Assembly (NCBI GenBank): GCA_003161635.1
Contig: PMOA01000148.1
Span: forward strand, 26,144-90,143
Origin: Limisphaerales bacterium
GTDB taxonomy: Bacteria; Verrucomicrobiota; Verrucomicrobiia; Limisphaerales; UBA11358
Reading direction: 5' to 3'
Length of the DNA: 64,000 nt
The notes beneath the pieces are model-generated. The model was not told where the DNA came from and ran no database searches. It saw nothing but the letters and a program-made list of their open reading frames with translations. A program made the translations under genes and the position numbers. Of the stretch, positions 3,212 through 31,076 are shown in pieces; position 1 is the stretch's first letter; every line of letters begins with the position of its first letter.

Positions 3212-6523
<3,312 letters not shown>

Positions 6524-24758: not shown

Positions 24759-25784
24759 TTAGGACGGCGGTTGGTTTTTCAAAAAACGCCGGACCATTTT
24801 CTCCAGCGCCGCAATCCAGAGCGGATGTTCGTTGAGACACGGAATTTGCGCGCACTCCTTTCCGCCTGCCTCTAAAAATATTCTCCGCCCCCGAATGCCG
24901 ATTTCTTCCAGCGTCTCCAGACAATCCGAGACAAACGCCGGGCAGATGACCAGAAGCTTTTTGACTCCGCGCCTTGGCAACTCCACCAGTTCAAAATCCG
25001 TGTAAGGCTTCAGCCACGGGTCGCGGCCGAGCCGGGATTGGAACGAAATTGAATACCGGTTCACGGGGACGCCCGCTTTCGCAACAAATGCCGCCACCGT
25101 TTTAAAACATTGCGCGCGATAACACGTCGCGTGCGCCAGGCTGCCGGTTTCGCAACAATTCGACACGGTCAAACAATGGCCTCCGGTCGGGTCGGATTTG
25201 CGCAGATGCCGTTCCGGAATGCCGTGAAAACTGAACAGCAAATGGTCGTAGCCCGCCTCCAGATGATTTGCCGCGCTCGCCGCCAGGGCCGCGATGTAAT
25301 CCGGCGCGCCGCCGTAGGGCGGTTGGACTTCGACCCGCATTTGCGGCGCGAGTTTTGCCACGACTTCCTTCACCCGCTCCACCGCCGTTTCGTAGCTCGA
25401 CATCGCGTAGTGCGGGAACAGTGGAATGAGAAATAATTCGTCCACGCCGCGGTCGCGCAATTTCCGAATCGCATCTGGAATGGACGGATTTTGATAACGC
25501 ATCGCCAGTTCAACCGGCGCGGTGACACACTTTTGCAGTTCGGTCTGCACCCGTTTGCTCGTGACGATGAGTGGCGAACCTTCCGGCAGCCAGATTTTTT
25601 TGTAAGCCTCGGCGGCTTGTTTCGGACGGTTGATGAGAATCATCCCCACGATGAACCGGCGCAGCAGCCAGGGCGTGTCAATCACCCGCCCGTCCATCAG
25701 AAATTCATTCAAATAACGCCGCACGTCGCCGACGGAGGTCGAGTCCGGCGAACCCAGATTGACCAGCAAAACGCCTTTGTTCAT
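24759..25784 (-). CDS. hemH: Ferrochelatase
   Basis: GVLLVNLGSPDSTSVGDVRRYLNEFLMD, FSFHGIPERH, FQSRLG. Confidence 0.93.
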   Translation of the reverse strand: MNKGVLLVNLGSPDSTSVGDVRRYLNEFLMDGRVIDTPWLLRRFIVGMILINRPKQAAEAYKKIWLPEGSPLIVTSKRVQTELQKCVTAPVELAMRYQNPSIPDAIRKLRDRGVDELFLIPLFPHYAMSSYETAVERVKEVVAKLAPQMRVEVQPPYGGAPDYIAALAASAANHLEAGYDHLLFSFHGIPERHLRKSDPTGGHCLTVSNCCETGSLAHATCYRAQCFKTVAAFVAKAGVPVNRYSISFQSRLGRDPWLKPYTDFELVELPRRGVKKLLVICPAFVSDCLETLEEIGIRGRRIFLEAGGKECAQIPCLNEHPLWIAALEKMVRRFLKNQPPS

Positions 25785-27289
25785 TTGGCAGTCAGGGATT
25801 TTTCCACGCGTTCCACGATATTCACGCCCGACACAATCGTGTCGCCCAGCGAAACGCCGTCGCGATAGTGGCCGGCAAAGAAAAGGCCCGCGACCTTGTT
25901 TTCGATTTTGTTCATCAATTCGCGGTAACGACCGTAGCCGACGTTGTATTGCGGAATCGCCTTAGGATAAAGCACGCAGTGCTCGAAGGTCGTTTTGCCG
26001 GTCACGCCCAGCAGCACACGCAGGTCTTCACACACCAGCGCGACAAGTTTCTCCGCCGGCAGCAAGGCAAGTTCCGGATAACGCTCGCCGCCGATGTAAC
26101 TTGTCAGCGTCAAATGACCTGTCGGCGCGCGATTGGGGAACAGCGACGACGAGAAAATCGTGCCGAGAATTTTAAAGCCTTCGATTTTGGGAATCAACAT
26201 GCCGAAGCCTTCGCACGGATGCGCCACATCCTCGCGGCGAAATCCCAGCACCACGCTCGCCACCGGCGGATGACGGATTTCGGAAAATGGCGAGAGGTCG
26301 AGCGGCTCAAGTTCTTTATCCTCGGTAGGGCGGTGCTGCTGCGCCGCCCCCATTTCAAGGCTGCGCGGCAGCGCAGCCCTACCACACATCACTTTCAACT
26401 CCGCCAGCCTGAACGCCGTGCCGCAATAAATCACCGCGCTGTGTTCTACTCGCGTTTCCCGGAGGGACGATCTCTGCGAGTCCCCAACTTCACCCGCCGT
26501 GAGTGGGGCTCGTGGAACTCGCCCCTCCGAAAGCGTGAGAGTCCAACCGGCAGCGGTCTGCGTCAGCTTTGTAACTGGGGTGTTTAGCCTCACCGCGTCG
26601 CCAAGTCGCGCCGCCAGCGTATCCGGCAGAACTTGCAAACCTTCATCAAACGAAAATTTTGGCGCATGATCCTTGGCCACTTCACCGCTCCGCTTCCGCG
26701 CACCCGCACCGAAAATCTGGCCTTTGATCAGTGAGCCGTAATTGTCCTCCAGCGCCTTGAGCTTGGGAAAAGCGTGCGTCAAGGAAAGCCGGTGCGGATC
26801 GCCCGCGTAAATTCCGGCCACAAGCGCGTCAATGGCTTGATCGAGAAATTCCTGGTTCAGCCGGCGCACAACGAATTGCGCGATACTTTCCTCGACGCCA
26901 TCGCGGCGGCGCGGCACAAACGGTTCGCGCAACACGGCCAGCTTGGCTTTGGCGGTGAAAAGTTTCGTCGTGAAAAAACCGAGTGGCGAACCCGGCATCG
27001 CCATGGGGCGTTTGTAGCGGACAACATACCGCGCCTCCGCTTTCGGATCGGGATTGAGCCGACGCGTTTCCAGGCCTGCGTCGCGGACGAGTTGGGCGAT
27101 TTTCGGCGATGTTTCGAGAATCGTGTTCGGCCCGAACTCGGCGAGATAACCGTCCTGGCGCAGCGACTGAATCACGCCACCCACGCGCCCGCCCGCTTCA
27201 TAAACCGTGACCGGGATGCCTTTGCGTTTCAGATAAAACGCGGCGGTCAACCCCGTGATGCCGGCCCCGATGATGGCGACGGGTTTCAT
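25781..27289 (-). CDS. hemY: FAD-dependent protoporphyrinogen/coproporphyrinogen III oxidase (HemY/CgoX type) with in-frame repeat insertions
   Basis: MKPVAIIGAGITGLTAAFYLKRKG (dinucleotide fold). C-terminal LFFAGHYRDGVSLGD. 4-nt overlap with hemH. Confidence 0.85.
   Translation of the reverse strand: MKPVAIIGAGITGLTAAFYLKRKGIPVTVYEAGGRVGGVIQSLRQDGYLAEFGPNTILETSPKIAQLVRDAGLETRRLNPDPKAEARYVVRYKRPMAMPGSPLGFFTTKLFTAKAKLAVLREPFVPRRRDGVEESIAQFVVRRLNQEFLDQAIDALVAGIYAGDPHRLSLTHAFPKLKALEDNYGSLIKGQIFGAGARKRSGEVAKDHAPKFSFDEGLQVLPDTLAARLGDAVRLNTPVTKLTQTAAGWTLTLSEGRVPRAPLTAGEVGDSQRSSLRETRVEHSAVIYCGTAFRLAELKVMCGRAALPRSLEMGAAQQHRPTEDKELEPLDLSPFSEIRHPPVASVVLGFRREDVAHPCEGFGMLIPKIEGFKILGTIFSSSLFPNRAPTGHLTLTSYIGGERYPELALLPAEKLVALVCEDLRVLLGVTGKTTFEHCVLYPKAIPQYNVGYGRYRELMNKIENKVAGLFFAGHYRDGVSLGDTIVSGVNIVERVEKSLTAK
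26324..26383. repeat. 60-nt REPIN-like doublet in frame in hemY
   Basis: ggtagggcggtgctgctgcgccgcc (26324-26348) / ggctgcgcggcagcgcagccctacc (26359-26383). Encodes CGRAALPRSLEMGAAQQHRPT. Confidence 0.65.
26461..26533. repeat. REPIN doublet of the 'GGGGCTCGTGGAACTCGCCCCTCC' family in frame in hemY
   Basis: 26505-26533 is an exact 29-mer, also present at 28499-28527 and as the reverse complement at 27867-27895. The degenerate partner arm is at 26461-26485. Encodes SEGRVPRAPLTAGEVGDSQRSSLRE. Confidence 0.8.
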
Positions 27290-27313: not shown

Positions 27314-27862
27314 TTATTTGCCACTTAACCCTCGTTTCAAGAATCTCCCGTATGCAAAAAGTGCTTTGTCTAAATCTCGATGAGATACATTTTGAAATGT
27401 TTTTGTGAACGGAATATAGTGGTCAAAGTAGATTTGGATTTTCTGTGGGCGAGAGTCGGGTAACTCTGAAAGAGTAAAATTACAGATTTTTGCCATCGCG
27501 CGATAGGTATGCTGATCAAAAATGGGAAAAAGCCTGTGATTGATGCAATGAAGCCAAAAAATGTCCCAGATCGCACCTCCCTGCAAAGATGCTAAATATT
27601 TCTTGCCAGCTTCATGTGACGACAAGCTAGGTAGTTTTTTTAATTGCGAAAGATAGACCGTCCGGATCGATTGCTGCTTTTTCTTGGCGATTTCTTCCGT
27701 GCTGTTTTTCCATTTATATAATGCCCACACACGGTTTTTGTCCAACGACTTTCCTATGTTTTTATCGTAGAGATGTTCCAAATCATAAGAATACTCCTTA
27801 CTCCAGAAAGCAACGAAATCTGCTTTATTGGCCGAGACAAATTGGACGATTTCAAGTTTCAT
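27314..27862 (-). CDS. Hypothetical protein, strongly AT-rich orphan inside the haem operon
   Basis: 182 aa, about 38-40% GC by eye against about 60% in the flanks. No family recognised. Confidence 0.6.
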   Translation of the reverse strand: MKLEIVQFVSANKADFVAFWSKEYSYDLEHLYDKNIGKSLDKNRVWALYKWKNSTEEIAKKKQQSIRTVYLSQLKKLPSLSSHEAGKKYLASLQGGAIWDIFWLHCINHRLFPIFDQHTYRAMAKICNFTLSELPDSRPQKIQIYFDHYIPFTKTFQNVSHRDLDKALFAYGRFLKRGLSGK

Positions 27863-27866
27863 ATTC

Positions 27867-28527
27867 CTTTCGGAGGGGCGAGTTCCACGAGCCCCTGACT
27901 AAAAACAACATTTGGGACTCGTAAAGCTCGCCCCTCCGATTTTTCATTAAGTTGCATCATGCCACGGCAATATATTGAGTTCACCTTGATACGGCCAGTC
28001 TTCCGGCCGTTTCACCAGACCATCCTTGATTGGATTTTCCCAGAGATAAAGCCACTTTTAATGATAGCTTTCGCCGTGGCGTAACTGCCGGTCGAAAAAA
28101 TCGCGTTGCCAAACCGGCTTTTCCGCTGGATACGGCCAGCGGCGGGTTGCCTCGGCACGCCAAAAACGAACCCATTGTTTCAGCGGCGTGACCGGCAATT
28201 TCGCGGGCGCACAGAAAAGATGCAAATGGTCGGGCATGATAACGTAGCGTCCCACCAACCAATGGTCGGCCTTGCGCCAACAATCGAGCAATAGTGCGAC
28301 AATATCAGGCTTGGCCAGCAAAGGGCGGCGTTTGTCTGCACAAACGGTGACATATTGGAGAACGGTCTGATCCGGAAATTCCAACGGAACCAGATGCGGG
28401 AGCGCAAGGCGACCTGGTTCCCGGATTGGTTCTTGCATGAAACCAAATTGAGCCGCATCTGGATTGTCCGGCAAGTTGAAAATGGGGGCTTGAAAATGGG
28501 GGCTCGTGGAACTCGCCCCTCCGAAAG
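27867..28527 (-). mobile_element. REP-flanked RAYT locus: REPIN - Y1 transposase pseudogene - REP
   Basis: REPIN 27867-27938 (cggaggggcgagttccacgagcccc ... gggactcgtaaagctcgcccctccg). RAYT gene 27947-28474. Single REP 28499-28527. Confidence 0.7.
27947..28474 (-). pseudogene. REP-associated tyrosine transposase (IS200/Y1 HUH family) with an in-frame TAA
   Basis: HUH motif YVIMPDHLHLF. After ...RQLRHGESYH the frame hits TAA (28058-28060), then continues in the same frame as KWLYLWENPIKDGLVKRPEDWPYQGELNILPWHDAT* (stop 27947-27949). Confidence 0.75.
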
Positions 28528-28528
28528 G

Positions 28529-29908
28529 TCAAATCGTTCGCGAATGTTTCCGTTCGCCCATCGGCGCGAGGGTGTTGTCGAAACACATCGCGATGTTGCG
28601 GATGAACAGGCGGCCGGTGTCGGTGACTTCCAGCCCGGTCGGGGAACGGCGCACCAGGCCGTCGGCTTCAAACGGCGCGAGCGACGCGAGTTCCGGCGCA
28701 AAGTGTTCCGCGAAGTTGATGCCGAGCTTGGCGCTCATGGCGGCGTAATCAAGCGACAGATCGCACATCACGCGCATGATGGTCTCCCGCCGGATTTTGT
28801 CCTCGTCGGTCAGGAAATACGCGCGCTGTAGCGGCACTTTGCCCGCATCCACGGCTTCCTGGTATTTCGGGAGTTCCTTCTCGTTCTGCCAGTAGGCTTC
28901 GGGAATCTGCGAGATGCTGGACATGCCGAACGCGTAGATGTCCGAACCGGCGCGCGTGCTGTAGCCCTGGAAATTGCGCTGGAGCTGCTTGTTGCGCTGC
29001 GCCACGGCCAGTTCGTCGTTGGGCCGCGCGAAATGATCCATGCCGATATAGACGTATTGGTTGTTGGCGGTGAGTTTCTCAATGACCAGCTTGAGCACCT
29101 GCAACTTGGTCCCGGCGGCGGGGAGATGCTGTTGCTGCTCCAGGATTTTTTGGGCGGGCTTGACCCACGGCACGTGCGCGTAACTGAAAACCGCCAGCCG
29201 GTCCGGCTTCATTTCCAGCACGATATCGAGCGTCTCGTTGAACGACTCCGGCGTCTGGTGCGGCAGGCCGTAGATGAGGTCGAGGTTGATCGAGCCGTAA
29301 CCCAACTCGCGCATCCAATCCATCGCCTGTTGCGTCATCGCGCGCGGCTGGATGCGGTGGACCGCTTCCTGCACCCTGGGGTTGAAATCCTGCACGCCCA
29401 TCGATGCGCGGTTGAAACCGATCTCGCGCAGCGCAACCATGTGATCGCGCGTGAGCCGGCGCGGGTCCACTTCCACGCTGGCTTCGATGTCCGGCGAAAA
29501 CGTGAAGTGTTGGTGGATGATTTCGCCAAGGCGGCGGATTTCATCGGGCTGTAAAAAAGTCGGCGAACCGCCGCCAAAGTGGAGTTGCCCGGCTTTGCGC
29601 TGCGGATTCAACCGCGGCGCCATCTCCGCCACCTCGCGGCCAAGGTAATCCACATAGTCCCTGCCCTTGTCGTGATTGAGCGTGATGACGGTGGTGCAGC
29701 CGCAAAACCAGCAGAGCGTCTCGCAGAATGGAATGTGAAAATAGAGCGAAAGGCCGCGCCCGGTCCGGTTGTTTTCCGAAATTTTTTCGGCCAACTGCGG
29801 CCACGTTATCGCGTCGGTGAATTTCGTGGCGGGCGGGTAGGAGGTGTAACGCGGCCCGGCCACGTTGTATTTTTCCACCAAAGCCAAATCCACTTTGAGC
29901 GTCTTCAT
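28529..29908 (-). CDS. hemN: Oxygen-independent coproporphyrinogen III oxidase (radical SAM)
   Basis: Start MKTLKVDLALVEKYNVAGPRYTSYPPA. LYFHIPFCETLCWFCGC (CxxxCxxC). The track ORF extension to 30112 overlaps hemE. Confidence 0.93.
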   Translation of the reverse strand: MKTLKVDLALVEKYNVAGPRYTSYPPATKFTDAITWPQLAEKISENNRTGRGLSLYFHIPFCETLCWFCGCTTVITLNHDKGRDYVDYLGREVAEMAPRLNPQRKAGQLHFGGGSPTFLQPDEIRRLGEIIHQHFTFSPDIEASVEVDPRRLTRDHMVALREIGFNRASMGVQDFNPRVQEAVHRIQPRAMTQQAMDWMRELGYGSINLDLIYGLPHQTPESFNETLDIVLEMKPDRLAVFSYAHVPWVKPAQKILEQQQHLPAAGTKLQVLKLVIEKLTANNQYVYIGMDHFARPNDELAVAQRNKQLQRNFQGYSTRAGSDIYAFGMSSISQIPEAYWQNEKELPKYQEAVDAGKVPLQRAYFLTDEDKIRRETIMRVMCDLSLDYAAMSAKLGINFAEHFAPELASLAPFEADGLVRRSPTGLEVTDTGRLFIRNIAMCFDNTLAPMGERKHSRTI

Positions 29909-29933
29909 CACGATAAAAATGTAGCCGTCCCGT

Positions 29934-31076
29934 TCATTTGAACTTTTGCACCGTCTCGACCAAGGCGGCGATGTTTTCCAATTTTGCATTGGGCGGCACG
30001 CCGTGACCAAGGTTGAAAATATGACCTTTGCGACCGCGCATGGCCTCGAGAACGGCCCGCGTTTCCTGTGCGACAACTTCCGGCGTGGCGTCGCTGAGCA
30101 GCGCGGGCGCAAGGTTGCCTTGAAGAGCGATGTCAGCGTGCAAAAGCCGGCGCGCGTGAGCCAGCGGAAATTGCCAGTCTATGCCCAGCACGCTTGCCCC
30201 GGTCGTCAGGAGATCATCCCAATTCCCGTGCGTGCCGAGGGAAAAAACAATGACGGGCGGAGCGCCGATCTCTGAATCGGCGCACTTCGCGTTTGTCCGT
30301 GTTCGCGCCGAATCGGAGTTCGGCGCTCCGAGACTGCCAATGATGTCCCGCATCCAACGCCCGGAAGCCTCCTGAAATTCCGTCGGCGCGAGCTGGCCGC
30401 CGTGACTGTCGAAAATCTGGAGCGCGTCCACGCCGGCGTTGATTTGCATTTGCAGATAAGCGGTGATGGCGGCGGTGAGTTTCCCGGCGAGCGCATAAAA
30501 AGTTTTCCGGTCTTCCCGAAAGAGGCTCAAGGCGCGGATGTATTTCCCGGCGCTGCCGCCTTCCATCATAAACGTGGCCAGCGTCCACGGCGAACCCGAG
30601 AAGCCGATGAGCGCGGTCTGGTCGCCGAGTTCCTTCCGAAGCAGGCGCAACGCCTTGTCCACGTAGCTGAGGCGTTCGGTCACGCGCTCGACGGAAAGGC
30701 GCTCGATATCGGCCCGTGTGCGCACGGCAAAGTCCATGACCACGCCGCCGGTTTCGCGGAAACGGTAAGGCTGACCCATCGCCTCGGGAATGACGAGGAT
30801 GTCGCTGAACAGGATCGCCGCATCGAATCCGAATCGCCGAACCGGCTGGAGCGTGACTTCGGCGGCAAGCCCGGGCGTTTGAATCAATTCCAAAAAAGAA
30901 TGCTTCTCCTTCAGTTCGCGATACTCCGGCAAGGCGCGCCCGGCCTGCCGCATCAGCCAGACGGGCGGGCGATCCGTTGCGCGGCAGTGGCAGGCATCGA
31001 GAAACCGCCGGCGATTCGTCGGGTTGCCCGAGACGGCGGGCGCGTTGGCGTTGGCGTTGGTTGCAATGGCGGCCAT
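29934..31076 (-). CDS. hemE: Uroporphyrinogen decarboxylase
   Basis: PPVWLMRQAGRALPEYRE, FDAAILFSDILV, NLGHGV. Confidence 0.93.
   Translation of the reverse strand: MAAIATNANANAPAVSGNPTNRRRFLDACHCRATDRPPVWLMRQAGRALPEYRELKEKHSFLELIQTPGLAAEVTLQPVRRFGFDAAILFSDILVIPEAMGQPYRFRETGGVVMDFAVRTRADIERLSVERVTERLSYVDKALRLLRKELGDQTALIGFSGSPWTLATFMMEGGSAGKYIRALSLFREDRKTFYALAGKLTAAITAYLQMQINAGVDALQIFDSHGGQLAPTEFQEASGRWMRDIIGSLGAPNSDSARTRTNAKCADSEIGAPPVIVFSLGTHGNWDDLLTTGASVLGIDWQFPLAHARRLLHADIALQGNLAPALLSDATPEVVAQETRAVLEAMRGRKGHIFNLGHGVPPNAKLENIAALVETVQKFK
30259..30329. repeat. Palindromic element in frame in hemE
   Basis: ggagcgccgatctctgaatcggcgc (30259-30283) / gcgccgaatcggagttcggcgctcc (30305-30329). 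Encodes GAPNSDSARTRTNAKCADSEIGAP. Confidence 0.7.

What the first reader, a model, noticed from the sequence alone, without database searches (positions are those of the whole stretch)
26324..26533. Two REPIN-like doublets in frame in hemY, one sharing an exact 29-mer with the RAYT flanks
hemY carries a 60-nt doublet (26324-26383, exactly 20 codons, CGRAALPRSLEMGAAQQHRPT). It also carries a second doublet (26461-26533, SEGRVPRAPLTAGEVGDSQRSS). The right arm of the second doublet, ggggctcgtggaactcgcccctccgaaag, is identical to 28499-28527 and to the reverse complement of 27867-27895, which are the sequences flanking the RAYT gene 1.4 kb away. This links a putative mobilising enzyme to copies sitting inside an essential gene.
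Basis: seen in the sequence. Interest (0 to 1): 0.6.

Follow-up and report, generated by a model that had tools for sequence, protein, structure and literature searches.

The report
Hairpin repeats translated inside haem gene
Two small mobile hairpin repeats (REPINs) sit in frame in surface loops of an apparently working haem-synthesis enzyme of a soil Verrucomicrobium; this is a known kind of event that is unusually common in this genome, and the repeat arms stay almost unchanged between species while the surrounding gene drifts.

Summary
hemY (window 25781-27289, minus strand, 502 aa) carries two inverted-repeat doublets in frame. The 29-mer is exact at all three stated sites.

- Family A has a GTAG head and a covarying 8-bp stem, at about 150 loci.
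- Family B is GGGnC-TCGTGGAACTC-GnCCC-TCCG, with 117 units at 74 loci.
- Family B flanks the neighbouring RAYT and an intact paralogue. The neighbouring RAYT is broken by one nonsense codon.

Most orthologues lack the inserts. The AlphaFold model is confident everywhere except the two inserts, which lie in loops. The rest of the gene has dN/dS 0.13-0.17, and I found no other protoporphyrinogen oxidase. The best reading is translated, tolerated insertions.

This is not special to hemY. All 18 other carrier genes tested are real housekeeping genes. Intragenic REPs are already published (Rickettsia RPEs; Opitutus terrae, PMC3733652), so this is a new member of a known kind.

Two points go beyond the finding:
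- The same two hemY loops hold at least seven different repeat types across species.
- The REP arms are 92-96% identical between species whose four-fold sites are about 50% identical.

The scan had noted a similar in-frame REP in LeuRS of this window. It was not followed up.

The parts
25781..27289 (-). hemY (protoporphyrinogen oxidase, 502 aa), intact ORF carrying both inserts
   Evidence: TIGR00562 285.6 bits, E 5.9e-85. Pfam Amino_oxidase in two stretches. AF2 model pLDDT 89.9, pTM 0.88. Foldseek top hit 2ivd_B, target-normalised TM 0.94. dN/dS 0.13-0.17 outside the inserts.
26324..26383 (.). Family-A REPIN (insert 1), 60 nt = codons 303-322: unit 26324-26348 (+), spacer 26349-26358, unit 26359-26383 (-). 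Each unit is GGTAG + GG(N6)-CTGC-(N6')CC.
   Evidence: RNA hairpin -44.7 kcal/mol, z -4.2. Absent from most orthologues. pLDDT below 50 at residues 307-317.
26460..26533 (.). Family-B REPIN (insert 2): diverged arm 26460-26485, spacer 26486-26504, master-type arm 26505-26530 plus AAG tail (the 29-mer is 26505-26533). Encodes about residues 253-276.
   Evidence: RNA hairpin -47.2 kcal/mol, z -5.2. Lies in the turn between strands 249-255 and 277-283; pLDDT below 50 at 266-269.
27867..27938 (.). Family-B REPIN downstream of the RAYT gene (units 27871-27895 (-) and 27914-27938 (+)); contains the reverse-complement copy of the 29-mer
   Evidence: Hairpin -48.8 kcal/mol, z -8.3.
27947..28474 (-). 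RAYT (REP-associated tyrosine transposase) gene with an in-frame TAA at 28058-28060. The HUH motif (HLH) lies before the stop. The conserved C-terminal block, where I expect the catalytic Tyr, lies after it.
   Evidence: Translation. NF047646 scores 42.9 bits for the truncated ORF and 80.1 bits read through the stop, against a cut-off of 80. The paralogue C27:15185-15658 has Gln at the stop position. Orthologues in G064/G067/G105 have open frames of 188-190 aa against 156 here.
28499..28527 (+). Family-B REP unit upstream of the RAYT gene (third exact copy of the 29-mer)
   Evidence: 30-nt inverted match between the two RAYT flanks.

Best explanation
Two REPINs (inverted pairs of REP hairpin units, the non-autonomous partners of RAYT tyrosine transposases) were inserted into hemY in ancestors of this lineage. 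They are now transcribed and translated as part of a functional protoporphyrinogen oxidase. One lies in a beta-hairpin turn and the other in a loop after a helix, both outside the confidently predicted core. They survive because their length keeps the frame, the frame in use has no stop codon, and the loops tolerate extra residues. Insert 2 belongs to family B, the REP family of the RAYT that sits 1.4 kb upstream and of its intact paralogue. Insert 1 belongs to family A, a separate GTAG-headed family whose transposase was not identified. This is a genome-wide habit of this Limisphaerales lineage, in which roughly a fifth to a third of the loci of both families lie in frame in housekeeping genes. 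The peptide itself appears to evolve neutrally. The REP arms are kept at the nucleotide level, either by selection on the hairpin or by homogenisation against the genome's REPIN population. Shown here: the anatomy, family membership, insertion relative to orthologues, an intact and constrained host gene, and slow evolution of the arms. Inferred: mobilisation by RAYT, translation of the inserts, and the cause of arm conservation.
For: - **Exact repeats and hairpins:**
- **Dispersed families with compensated stems:** family B has 117 units at 74 loci, 41 of them doublets. Its stems are GGGAC/GTCCC (19), GGGCG/CGCCC (15) and GGGGC/GCCCC (15). Family A has about 217 units at 151 loci.
- **RAYT association of family B:** it flanks both the window RAYT and C27:15185-15658.
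- **Insertion relative to orthologues:** most of about 110 orthologues lack each insert.
- **Functional host gene:** intact ORF; pLDDT 89.9 with low confidence only at 266-269 and 307-317; TM 0.94 to M. xanthus PPO; dN/dS 0.13-0.17. No HemJ (PF03653) or Flavodoxin_5 (PF12724, the family I took to cover HemG) in a 94.6%-complete genome.
- **Genome-wide pattern:** 30 doublets sit in long ORFs. All 18 tested have NCBIfam or Pfam matches spanning or flanking the insert, except the IspG fragment, which matched only upstream of it: CinA, ProRS, PurL, IleRS (two inserts), ArgRS, LpxB, XseA, BioF, MiaB-like, a CofH/MqnC-like radical SAM protein, a Ser/Thr kinase, HypF, a U32 peptidase, IspG, PheT, XDH, MetH and a pyridine-nucleotide oxidoreductase.
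- **Codon-usage test:** at least 35 of 151 family-A loci and 25 of 74 family-B loci pass. About 29 and 17 remain after chance single-unit matches are removed by eye.
- **Arm conservation:** 92-96% identity against 48-57% at four-fold sites of the same gene (P from 1e-8 to 1e-14). The spacer is 42-89% identical, and dN is about equal to dS inside the insert.
Against:
- The neighbouring RAYT is a pseudogene in this genome.
- The family-B insert persists in genomes with no such RAYT in the 3 kb upstream of hemY; in two of them hemN abuts hemY directly.
- RAYT-adjacent genomes exist with an empty site (G118, G091, G109, L079).
- No cognate RAYT was found for family A.
- Family B has a GGAG head, not GTAG.
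- The distribution of insert types does not follow the hemY tree, so a single insertion followed by vertical descent is too simple.
Confidence: 0.8

Rival explanations
1. The hemY copy of family B is kept identical to the RAYT-flanking copies by ongoing local exchange (gene conversion or repeated RAYT-mediated replacement). On this view it is not a passive old insertion.
For: Three of the four exact 29-mers in the genome lie within 2.1 kb. In G010 the hemY arm and the RAYT-flank units have both switched to the compensated stem GGGAC/GTCCC, whereas G000 and G035 have GGGGC/GCCCC in both places. The arms evolve far more slowly than four-fold sites.
Against: The arm is equally conserved in L069 and L081, where hemN abuts hemY and no RAYT or REP lies between them. 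The G067 and G105 arms each differ from their own RAYT flanks by one base. The concerted switch rests on one genome.
Confidence: 0.25
2. The arms are conserved because the hairpins work at the nucleic-acid level inside the haem operon. They could act as mRNA stabilisers or decay barriers, as translation-pausing elements, or as DNA structures. They would then be maintained by selection on structure, not on the peptide.
For: dN is about equal to dS inside the insert, while all codon positions of the arms are conserved. The family-A stem shows a compensatory path: U-A in G000, U.G in L079, C-G in L085. Pair 15/70 of the family-B hairpin occurs as GC, GU and AU. Predicted stabilities are -45 to -47 kcal/mol. 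From my own knowledge, extragenic REPs are known to affect mRNA stability and translation in E. coli.
Against: Many close relatives do without either element or carry an unrelated repeat at the same spot, which argues against a needed function. In the nine-sequence alignment, fold_alignment counted no pair as changed on both sides relative to its commonest pair. Conservation could equally reflect homogenisation.
Confidence: 0.3
3. The same loop was hit independently and recently in different species by near-identical master copies (target-site preference). This would explain both the patchy distribution and the low divergence.
For: Element type at site 1 is no more clustered on the hemY tree than shuffled labels: 9 changes, shuffled mean 9.4. 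At least five palindromic families (A1, A2, E, F, G) start at the same codon boundary. An ArgRS loop shows the same variety.
Against: All nine full-length family-B copies share the same 12-nt offset from the Trp codon and the same 71-nt length. Within the G000 group the spacers are visibly related. No common target motif was seen in the flanks.
Confidence: 0.2
4. The inserts are artefacts of metagenome assembly, or hemY is a decaying pseudogene.
For: The genome is a 159-contig MAG, and repeats are a common cause of misassembly.
Against: The same inserts occur at the same position in independent MAGs from different studies (SPRUCE, Microflora Danica and others), some on contigs of 260-270 kb. 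The elements (60-71 nt) are, from my own knowledge, shorter than typical short reads. The ORF is intact and under purifying selection, and the fold is predicted with confidence.
Confidence: 0.02

Closest known systems
Intragenic GTAG/CGTC REPs described by Di Nocera, De Gregorio and Rocco 2013 (BMC Genomics 14:522, PMC3733652), most numerous in the verrucomicrobium Opitutus terrae
   Same: Short GTAG-headed hairpin units with covarying stems, often as dimers encoding 20-30 residues, lie inside genes for known proteins. Some ORFs carry two inserts, and tRNA synthetases are among the hosts. Several REP families coexist in one genome.
   Different: This is a different order (Limisphaerales) with different families, and hemY is not in their list. 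Family B has a GGAG head yet flanks RAYT genes. The fraction of loci inside genes was estimated here. That paper is not seen to report recurrent use of the same loop by many families or the rate contrast with four-fold sites, but only text searches of it were read.
Rickettsia palindromic elements (RPE; Ogata et al. 2000, cited in PMC3733652 as refs 13-14)
   Same: Palindromic repeats inserted in frame in conserved protein-coding genes, retained in apparently functional proteins and presumed to lie in surface-exposed segments.
   Different: From my own knowledge, RPE-1 elements are longer (about 100-150 bp), occur in obligate intracellular Alphaproteobacteria, and have no associated RAYT. Sequence relatedness was not tested here.
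REPIN-RAYT systems of Pseudomonas and E. coli (Bertels and Rainey 2011, PMC3116915; bioRxiv 10.1101/2021.07.10.451892)
   Same: Inverted REP doublets with a less conserved spacer form a dispersed population with a master sequence. The RAYT gene is flanked by its own REPs and sits in a fixed position between the same genes in related species.
   Different: [quoted passage not shown] Here about 20-35% of loci are in frame in genes. This genome has 12 RAYT-like loci, and two of them share family B.

Membership tests
REP/REPIN (RAYT-associated repetitive palindromes) | Short unit forming a stem-loop, with compensated stem variants across copies | tested here: met
   Family B has a 5-bp stem in four compensated variants. 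Family A has an 8-bp stem with many compensated variants. Hairpin energies have z-scores of -4 to -8.
REP/REPIN (RAYT-associated repetitive palindromes) | Many dispersed copies in one genome, frequently as inverted doublets | tested here: met
   Family B has 117 units at 74 loci, with 41 doublets of 61-80 nt. Family A has about 217 units at 151 loci. The reversed-genome controls gave 12 (B) and 29 (against 134 with the same strict family-A scan).
REP/REPIN (RAYT-associated repetitive palindromes) | Units flank a RAYT gene in inverted orientation | tested here: met
   Met for family B at two RAYT genes. Not met for family A: none of the 12 RAYT-like loci is flanked by it.
REP/REPIN (RAYT-associated repetitive palindromes) | Conserved GTAG tetranucleotide at the head of the unit | tested here: inconclusive
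   Family A has GGTAG. Family B has CGGAG at the equivalent place, one base away from GTAG. Degenerate heads are reported in PMC3733652.
REP/REPIN (RAYT-associated repetitive palindromes) | Extragenic location (the E in REP) | tested here: not met
   Both hemY copies, and at least 35 of 151 family-A loci and 25 of 74 family-B loci, lie in frame in coding sequence. Intragenic members are already accepted in the literature.
RAYT (NCBIfam NF047646 REP_Tyr_transpos) | Profile score at or above the curated cut-off (80 bits) | tested here: met
   80.1 bits when read through the TAA. Only 42.9 bits for the 138-aa truncated ORF. No Pfam hit.
RAYT (NCBIfam NF047646 REP_Tyr_transpos) | Intact HUH motif and catalytic tyrosine in one reading frame | tested here: not met
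   The HLH motif (..MPDHLHLF..) is present. A TAA at 28058-28060 cuts off the conserved C-terminal block KWLYLWENPIKDGLV. The paralogue has Gln at that position, and the closest orthologues have open frames of 188-190 aa against 156 here.
HemY / protoporphyrinogen oxidase (TIGR00562) | Profile score above cut-off and PPO fold | tested here: met
   285.6 bits against a cut-off of 97.85. Best solved relatives are 1sez and 2ivd. Foldseek to 2ivd_B gives target-normalised TM 0.94.
Rickettsia palindromic elements | Sequence homology to RPE families | not tested
   Only the mode of occurrence (in-frame palindromic inserts) was compared.

The most novel reading that the evidence does not exclude
In this lineage REPINs are not merely tolerated in genes. 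Certain surface loops, such as hemY residues about 253 and 303 and ArgRS about 384, act as landing pads where one repeat family replaces another in frame. While an element is resident, its REP arms are actively held to the family's master sequence, by RAYT-dependent homogenisation or by selection on the hairpin, even though the encoded peptide is neutral. The four-fold sites of the host gene then give a built-in neutral clock against which REPIN maintenance can be measured.
Probability: 0.35. Interest if true: 0.65.

Novelty: new member of a known kind. Interest (0 to 1): 0.45.

Why it matters
REPINs are usually described as almost exclusively extragenic. Whether they persist because hosts use them or because RAYTs maintain them is an open debate. 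A lineage with dozens of in-frame copies in essential genes offers a natural experiment. The host gene supplies a neutral rate (four-fold sites) and a protein-level constraint side by side with the repeat, so constraint on the repeat at the nucleotide level can be measured directly. Here the arms are about 94% identical where neutral sites are about 50% identical. These inserts also inflate and diversify housekeeping proteins in Verrucomicrobia MAGs, and annotators should recognise them. The individual hemY case is ordinary for this genome.

Tried and rejected
- **'The insert occurs only where a RAYT is adjacent.'** This held for the first 30 loci (3 of 3) but failed on wider sampling. Four insert-bearing genomes have no adjacent RAYT, and four RAYT-adjacent genomes have an empty site.
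- **A single clade of insert carriers.** The hemY tree rejects it, with at least 3 changes forced by well-supported branches.
- **A common target motif at the insertion points.** None was seen in the flanks. The boundaries of insert 2 cannot be fixed to the base, because the flanking codons also differ between filled and empty alleles.
- **The cognate RAYT of family A.** Not found among 12 Y1-transposase-like loci.
- **Strict regular-expression counts of family A.** They under-count doublets and give 29 hits in a reversed-genome control. Several single-unit 'genic' hits were chance matches, judged from their peptides, so the genic fractions are given as ranges.
- **Codon-usage test.** It wrongly rejects some true cases, including hemY insert 1 and the MiaB-like gene, so it is conservative.
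- **ArgRS arm-rate comparison.** Not completed, because my pattern missed the G000 copy.

Full report
**1. What is at the coordinates**

- The ORF at window 25781-27289 (minus strand, 502 aa) is a protoporphyrinogen oxidase. It scores 285.6 bits against TIGR00562 (cut-off 97.85) and matches Pfam Amino_oxidase in two stretches.
- It lies in a haem cluster: hemH 24759-25784, hemY, a 182-aa AT-rich ORF, a RAYT-like gene, hemN 28529-30112 and hemE.
- The 29-mer is exact at 26505-26533 (+), 27867-27895 (-) and 28499-28527 (+), with none expected by chance.
- Insert 1 (26324-26383) is 60 nt and starts on a codon boundary, covering residues 303-322. It is two 25-nt units of the form GGTAG-GG(N6)-CTGC-(N6')CC in inverted orientation.
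- Insert 2 has a 71-nt palindromic core at 26460-26530, with two 26-nt arms and a 19-nt spacer.
- On the mRNA strand the two elements fold at -44.7 kcal/mol (z -4.2) and -47.2 kcal/mol (z -5.2).

**2. Both elements belong to dispersed REP families**

The window lies in a 4.31-Mb, 159-contig genome that is 94.6% complete.

- *The 29-mer genome-wide.* It is exact at 4 places and matches at 20 places with up to 3 mismatches. The fourth exact copy lies in frame in a MetH-like gene.
- *Family B.* The unit is GGGnC-TCGTGGAACTC-GnCCC-TCCGAAA. Its 5-bp stem occurs as GGGAC/GTCCC (19 copies), GGGCG/CGCCC (15), GGGGC/GCCCC (15) and GGGTC/GACCC (3), which is compensated variation. There are 117 units at 74 loci, 41 of them doublets of 61-80 nt.
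- *Family A.* It has a GTAG head and an 8-bp stem in many compensated versions, with about 217 units at 151 loci.

**3. The transposase**

- The neighbouring gene (27947-28474, minus strand) reads ...RHGESYH*KWLYLWENPIKDGLV....
- It scores 80.1 bits against NF047646 REP_Tyr_transpos (cut-off 80) when read through the stop, and 42.9 bits as the truncated ORF.
- An intact paralogue at C27:15185-15658 is 64.6% identical, has Gln at the stop position, and is flanked on both sides by family-B units.
- The closest orthologues (G064, G067, G105; 88-92% identity) have open frames of 188-190 aa, against 156 here. The nonsense change is therefore recent. This agrees with the earlier follow-up e1-2818997.
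- The genome has 12 RAYT-like loci. Only these two are flanked by family B, and none is flanked by family A.

**4. The inserts are insertions, and hemY still looks functional**

- In 30 orthologues from relatives, most lack both segments.
- The same holds in 74 usable loci from public genome contigs. Most are labelled Verrucomicrobiota or Limisphaerales (a few MAG records carry other names), and the sources named in the record titles include SPRUCE, bog and palsa sites and Microflora Danica.
- An AlphaFold2 model built on a 54-sequence alignment has mean pLDDT 89.9 and pTM 0.88. The only segments below 50 are residues 266-269 and 307-317.
- Insert 2 lies in the turn between strands 249-255 and 277-283. 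Insert 1 lies in the loop after strand 299-302.
- The model matches the M. xanthus enzyme 2ivd_B with target-normalised TM 0.94.
- Outside the inserts dN/dS is 0.13-0.17 in six comparisons.
- No PF03653 (HemJ) or PF12724 (Flavodoxin_5, the family I took to cover HemG) match was found. hemY is therefore the only protoporphyrinogen oxidase detected.

**5. This is a habit of the genome and is already known in kind**

- Thirty high-confidence doublets lie inside ORFs that are open for at least 140 codons on both sides.
- All 18 carrier genes tested are real proteins. Their profile matches span or flank the insert, except for the IspG fragment, whose match ends just before it. They are CinA, ProRS, PurL, IleRS (two inserts), ArgRS, LpxB, XseA, BioF, a MiaB-like and a CofH/MqnC-like radical SAM enzyme, a Ser/Thr kinase, HypF, a U32 peptidase, IspG, PheT, xanthine dehydrogenase, MetH and a pyridine-nucleotide oxidoreductase.
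- A conservative test combining ORF span and codon usage passes 35 of 151 family-A loci and 25 of 74 family-B loci. About 29 and 17 remain after chance single-unit matches are removed by eye.
- The 16 family-B doublets use two of the three possible frames: SEGRVPR-type in 11 cases and RRDELRE-type in 5.
- Di Nocera et al. 2013 (PMC3733652) already describe intragenic GTAG and CGTC REPs. The highest number is in the verrucomicrobium Opitutus terrae, with dimers encoding 20-30 residues and double inserts in single ORFs. They relate these to Rickettsia RPEs.

**6. History at the two hemY sites**

- *Family B at site 2.* It occurs in 10 genomes: G000, G067, G105, G064, L069, L070, L072 (shortened), L081, G035 and G010. 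In the nine full-length copies it starts 12 nt after the Trp codon and is 71 nt long.
- *RAYT adjacency.* The RAYT is adjacent in six of these genomes. In L069 and L081 hemN abuts hemY directly. Four other genomes have the RAYT but an empty site. The association with the RAYT is therefore only partial.
- *Phylogeny.* The carriers are not one clade on the hemY tree.
- *Site 1.* Different species carry family A1, a second GTAG family A2, and at least three other palindromic repeats (E, F and G). All start at the same codon boundary. Their distribution on the tree is no better than shuffled labels.
- *Site 2 in other species.* Some carry an unrelated AACATCCAACATCGAAC-type repeat.
- *ArgRS.* A loop in ArgRS shows the same variety, and even the closest relative, G067, carries a different repeat there.

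**7. Rate contrast**

- Between G000 and the more distant carriers, four-fold degenerate sites of hemY are 48-57% identical. The family-B arms are 92-96% identical (P from 1e-8 to 1e-11) and the family-A1 element is 92-93% identical (P from 1e-9 to 1e-14).
- The family-B spacer is 42-89% identical.
- Inside insert 2 dN is about equal to dS, and both are well below the dS of the gene.
- The A1 stem shows U-A in G000, U.G in L079 and C-G in L085.
- In G010 the hemY arm and the RAYT-flank units have both moved to GGGAC/GTCCC.
- The peptide therefore looks neutral while the REP arms are maintained at the nucleotide level. I cannot tell whether this reflects structural selection, homogenisation or repeated re-insertion. 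These are listed as rival explanations.

**8. Verdict**

The element type and its intragenic occurrence are known, so this is a new member of a known kind. What may be new is the frequency of in-frame copies in this lineage, the reuse of the same loops, and the slow evolution of the arms inside a coding sequence.

Noticed in passing
window 27314-27862 (-): The 182-aa AT-rich ORF between hemY and the RAYT has no Pfam family. Its only NCBIfam hit is far below cut-off (E 0.0098, 14.6 bits). Among the 30 RAYT loci fetched from relatives it was found only in G000 itself. It looks like a recent insertion next to the REPIN.
   Followed up: partly
L033, L034, L035, L036, L037, L038 (RAYT loci of G067, G111, G105, G118, G091, G109): A second copy of the last 33 or so codons of hemN (residues 495-527, about 82-88% identity; residues 483-527 at 58% in L035) lies on the hemY side of the RAYT. 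This suggests the RAYT cassette arrived with, or created, a duplication of the hemN 3' end. No such copy was detected in G000.
   Followed up: no
G000:C143:19114-20997 (ArgRS), residues about 384-410; loci L146-L175: The ArgRS loop carrying a family-B REPIN in G000 and G064 holds other repeat-derived segments in relatives: SGILPEE..TAGGTPAAR-type, IRNPQSAIP-type and NSELRTSNPEL-type. A second variable region lies at residues about 112-140.
   Followed up: partly
G000 contigs C33, C41, C47, C99, C125, C145, C148, C149, C155 and C83:18656-18991: There are ten further RAYT-like (Y1 transposase) loci. Several are flanked by their own distinct repeats, for example GTAGCCGCCGACGTCAGTCGGCG at C125 and CACGCGCCCTCGCGTG at C33. 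The one at C83:18656-18991 has an in-frame TAG.
   Followed up: partly
window 4196-4287: An earlier first-reader note (e1-2818991) reports another REP element in frame in LeuRS in this same window. That fits the genome-wide pattern found here. I did not examine it.
   Followed up: no
G000:C50:19980-20490 (IleRS): IleRS carries two family-A doublets 450 nt apart, in the opposite reading of the palindrome (VVGTSCRSSQTSEAAQQRGPT). The TIGR00392 match covers both sides.
   Followed up: partly
L002, L074, L075, L076 (hemY site 2): Some species have, in place of the REPIN, a tandem AACATCCAACATCGAAC-type repeat that translates as NIEHPTSNIQHPSF.
   Followed up: no
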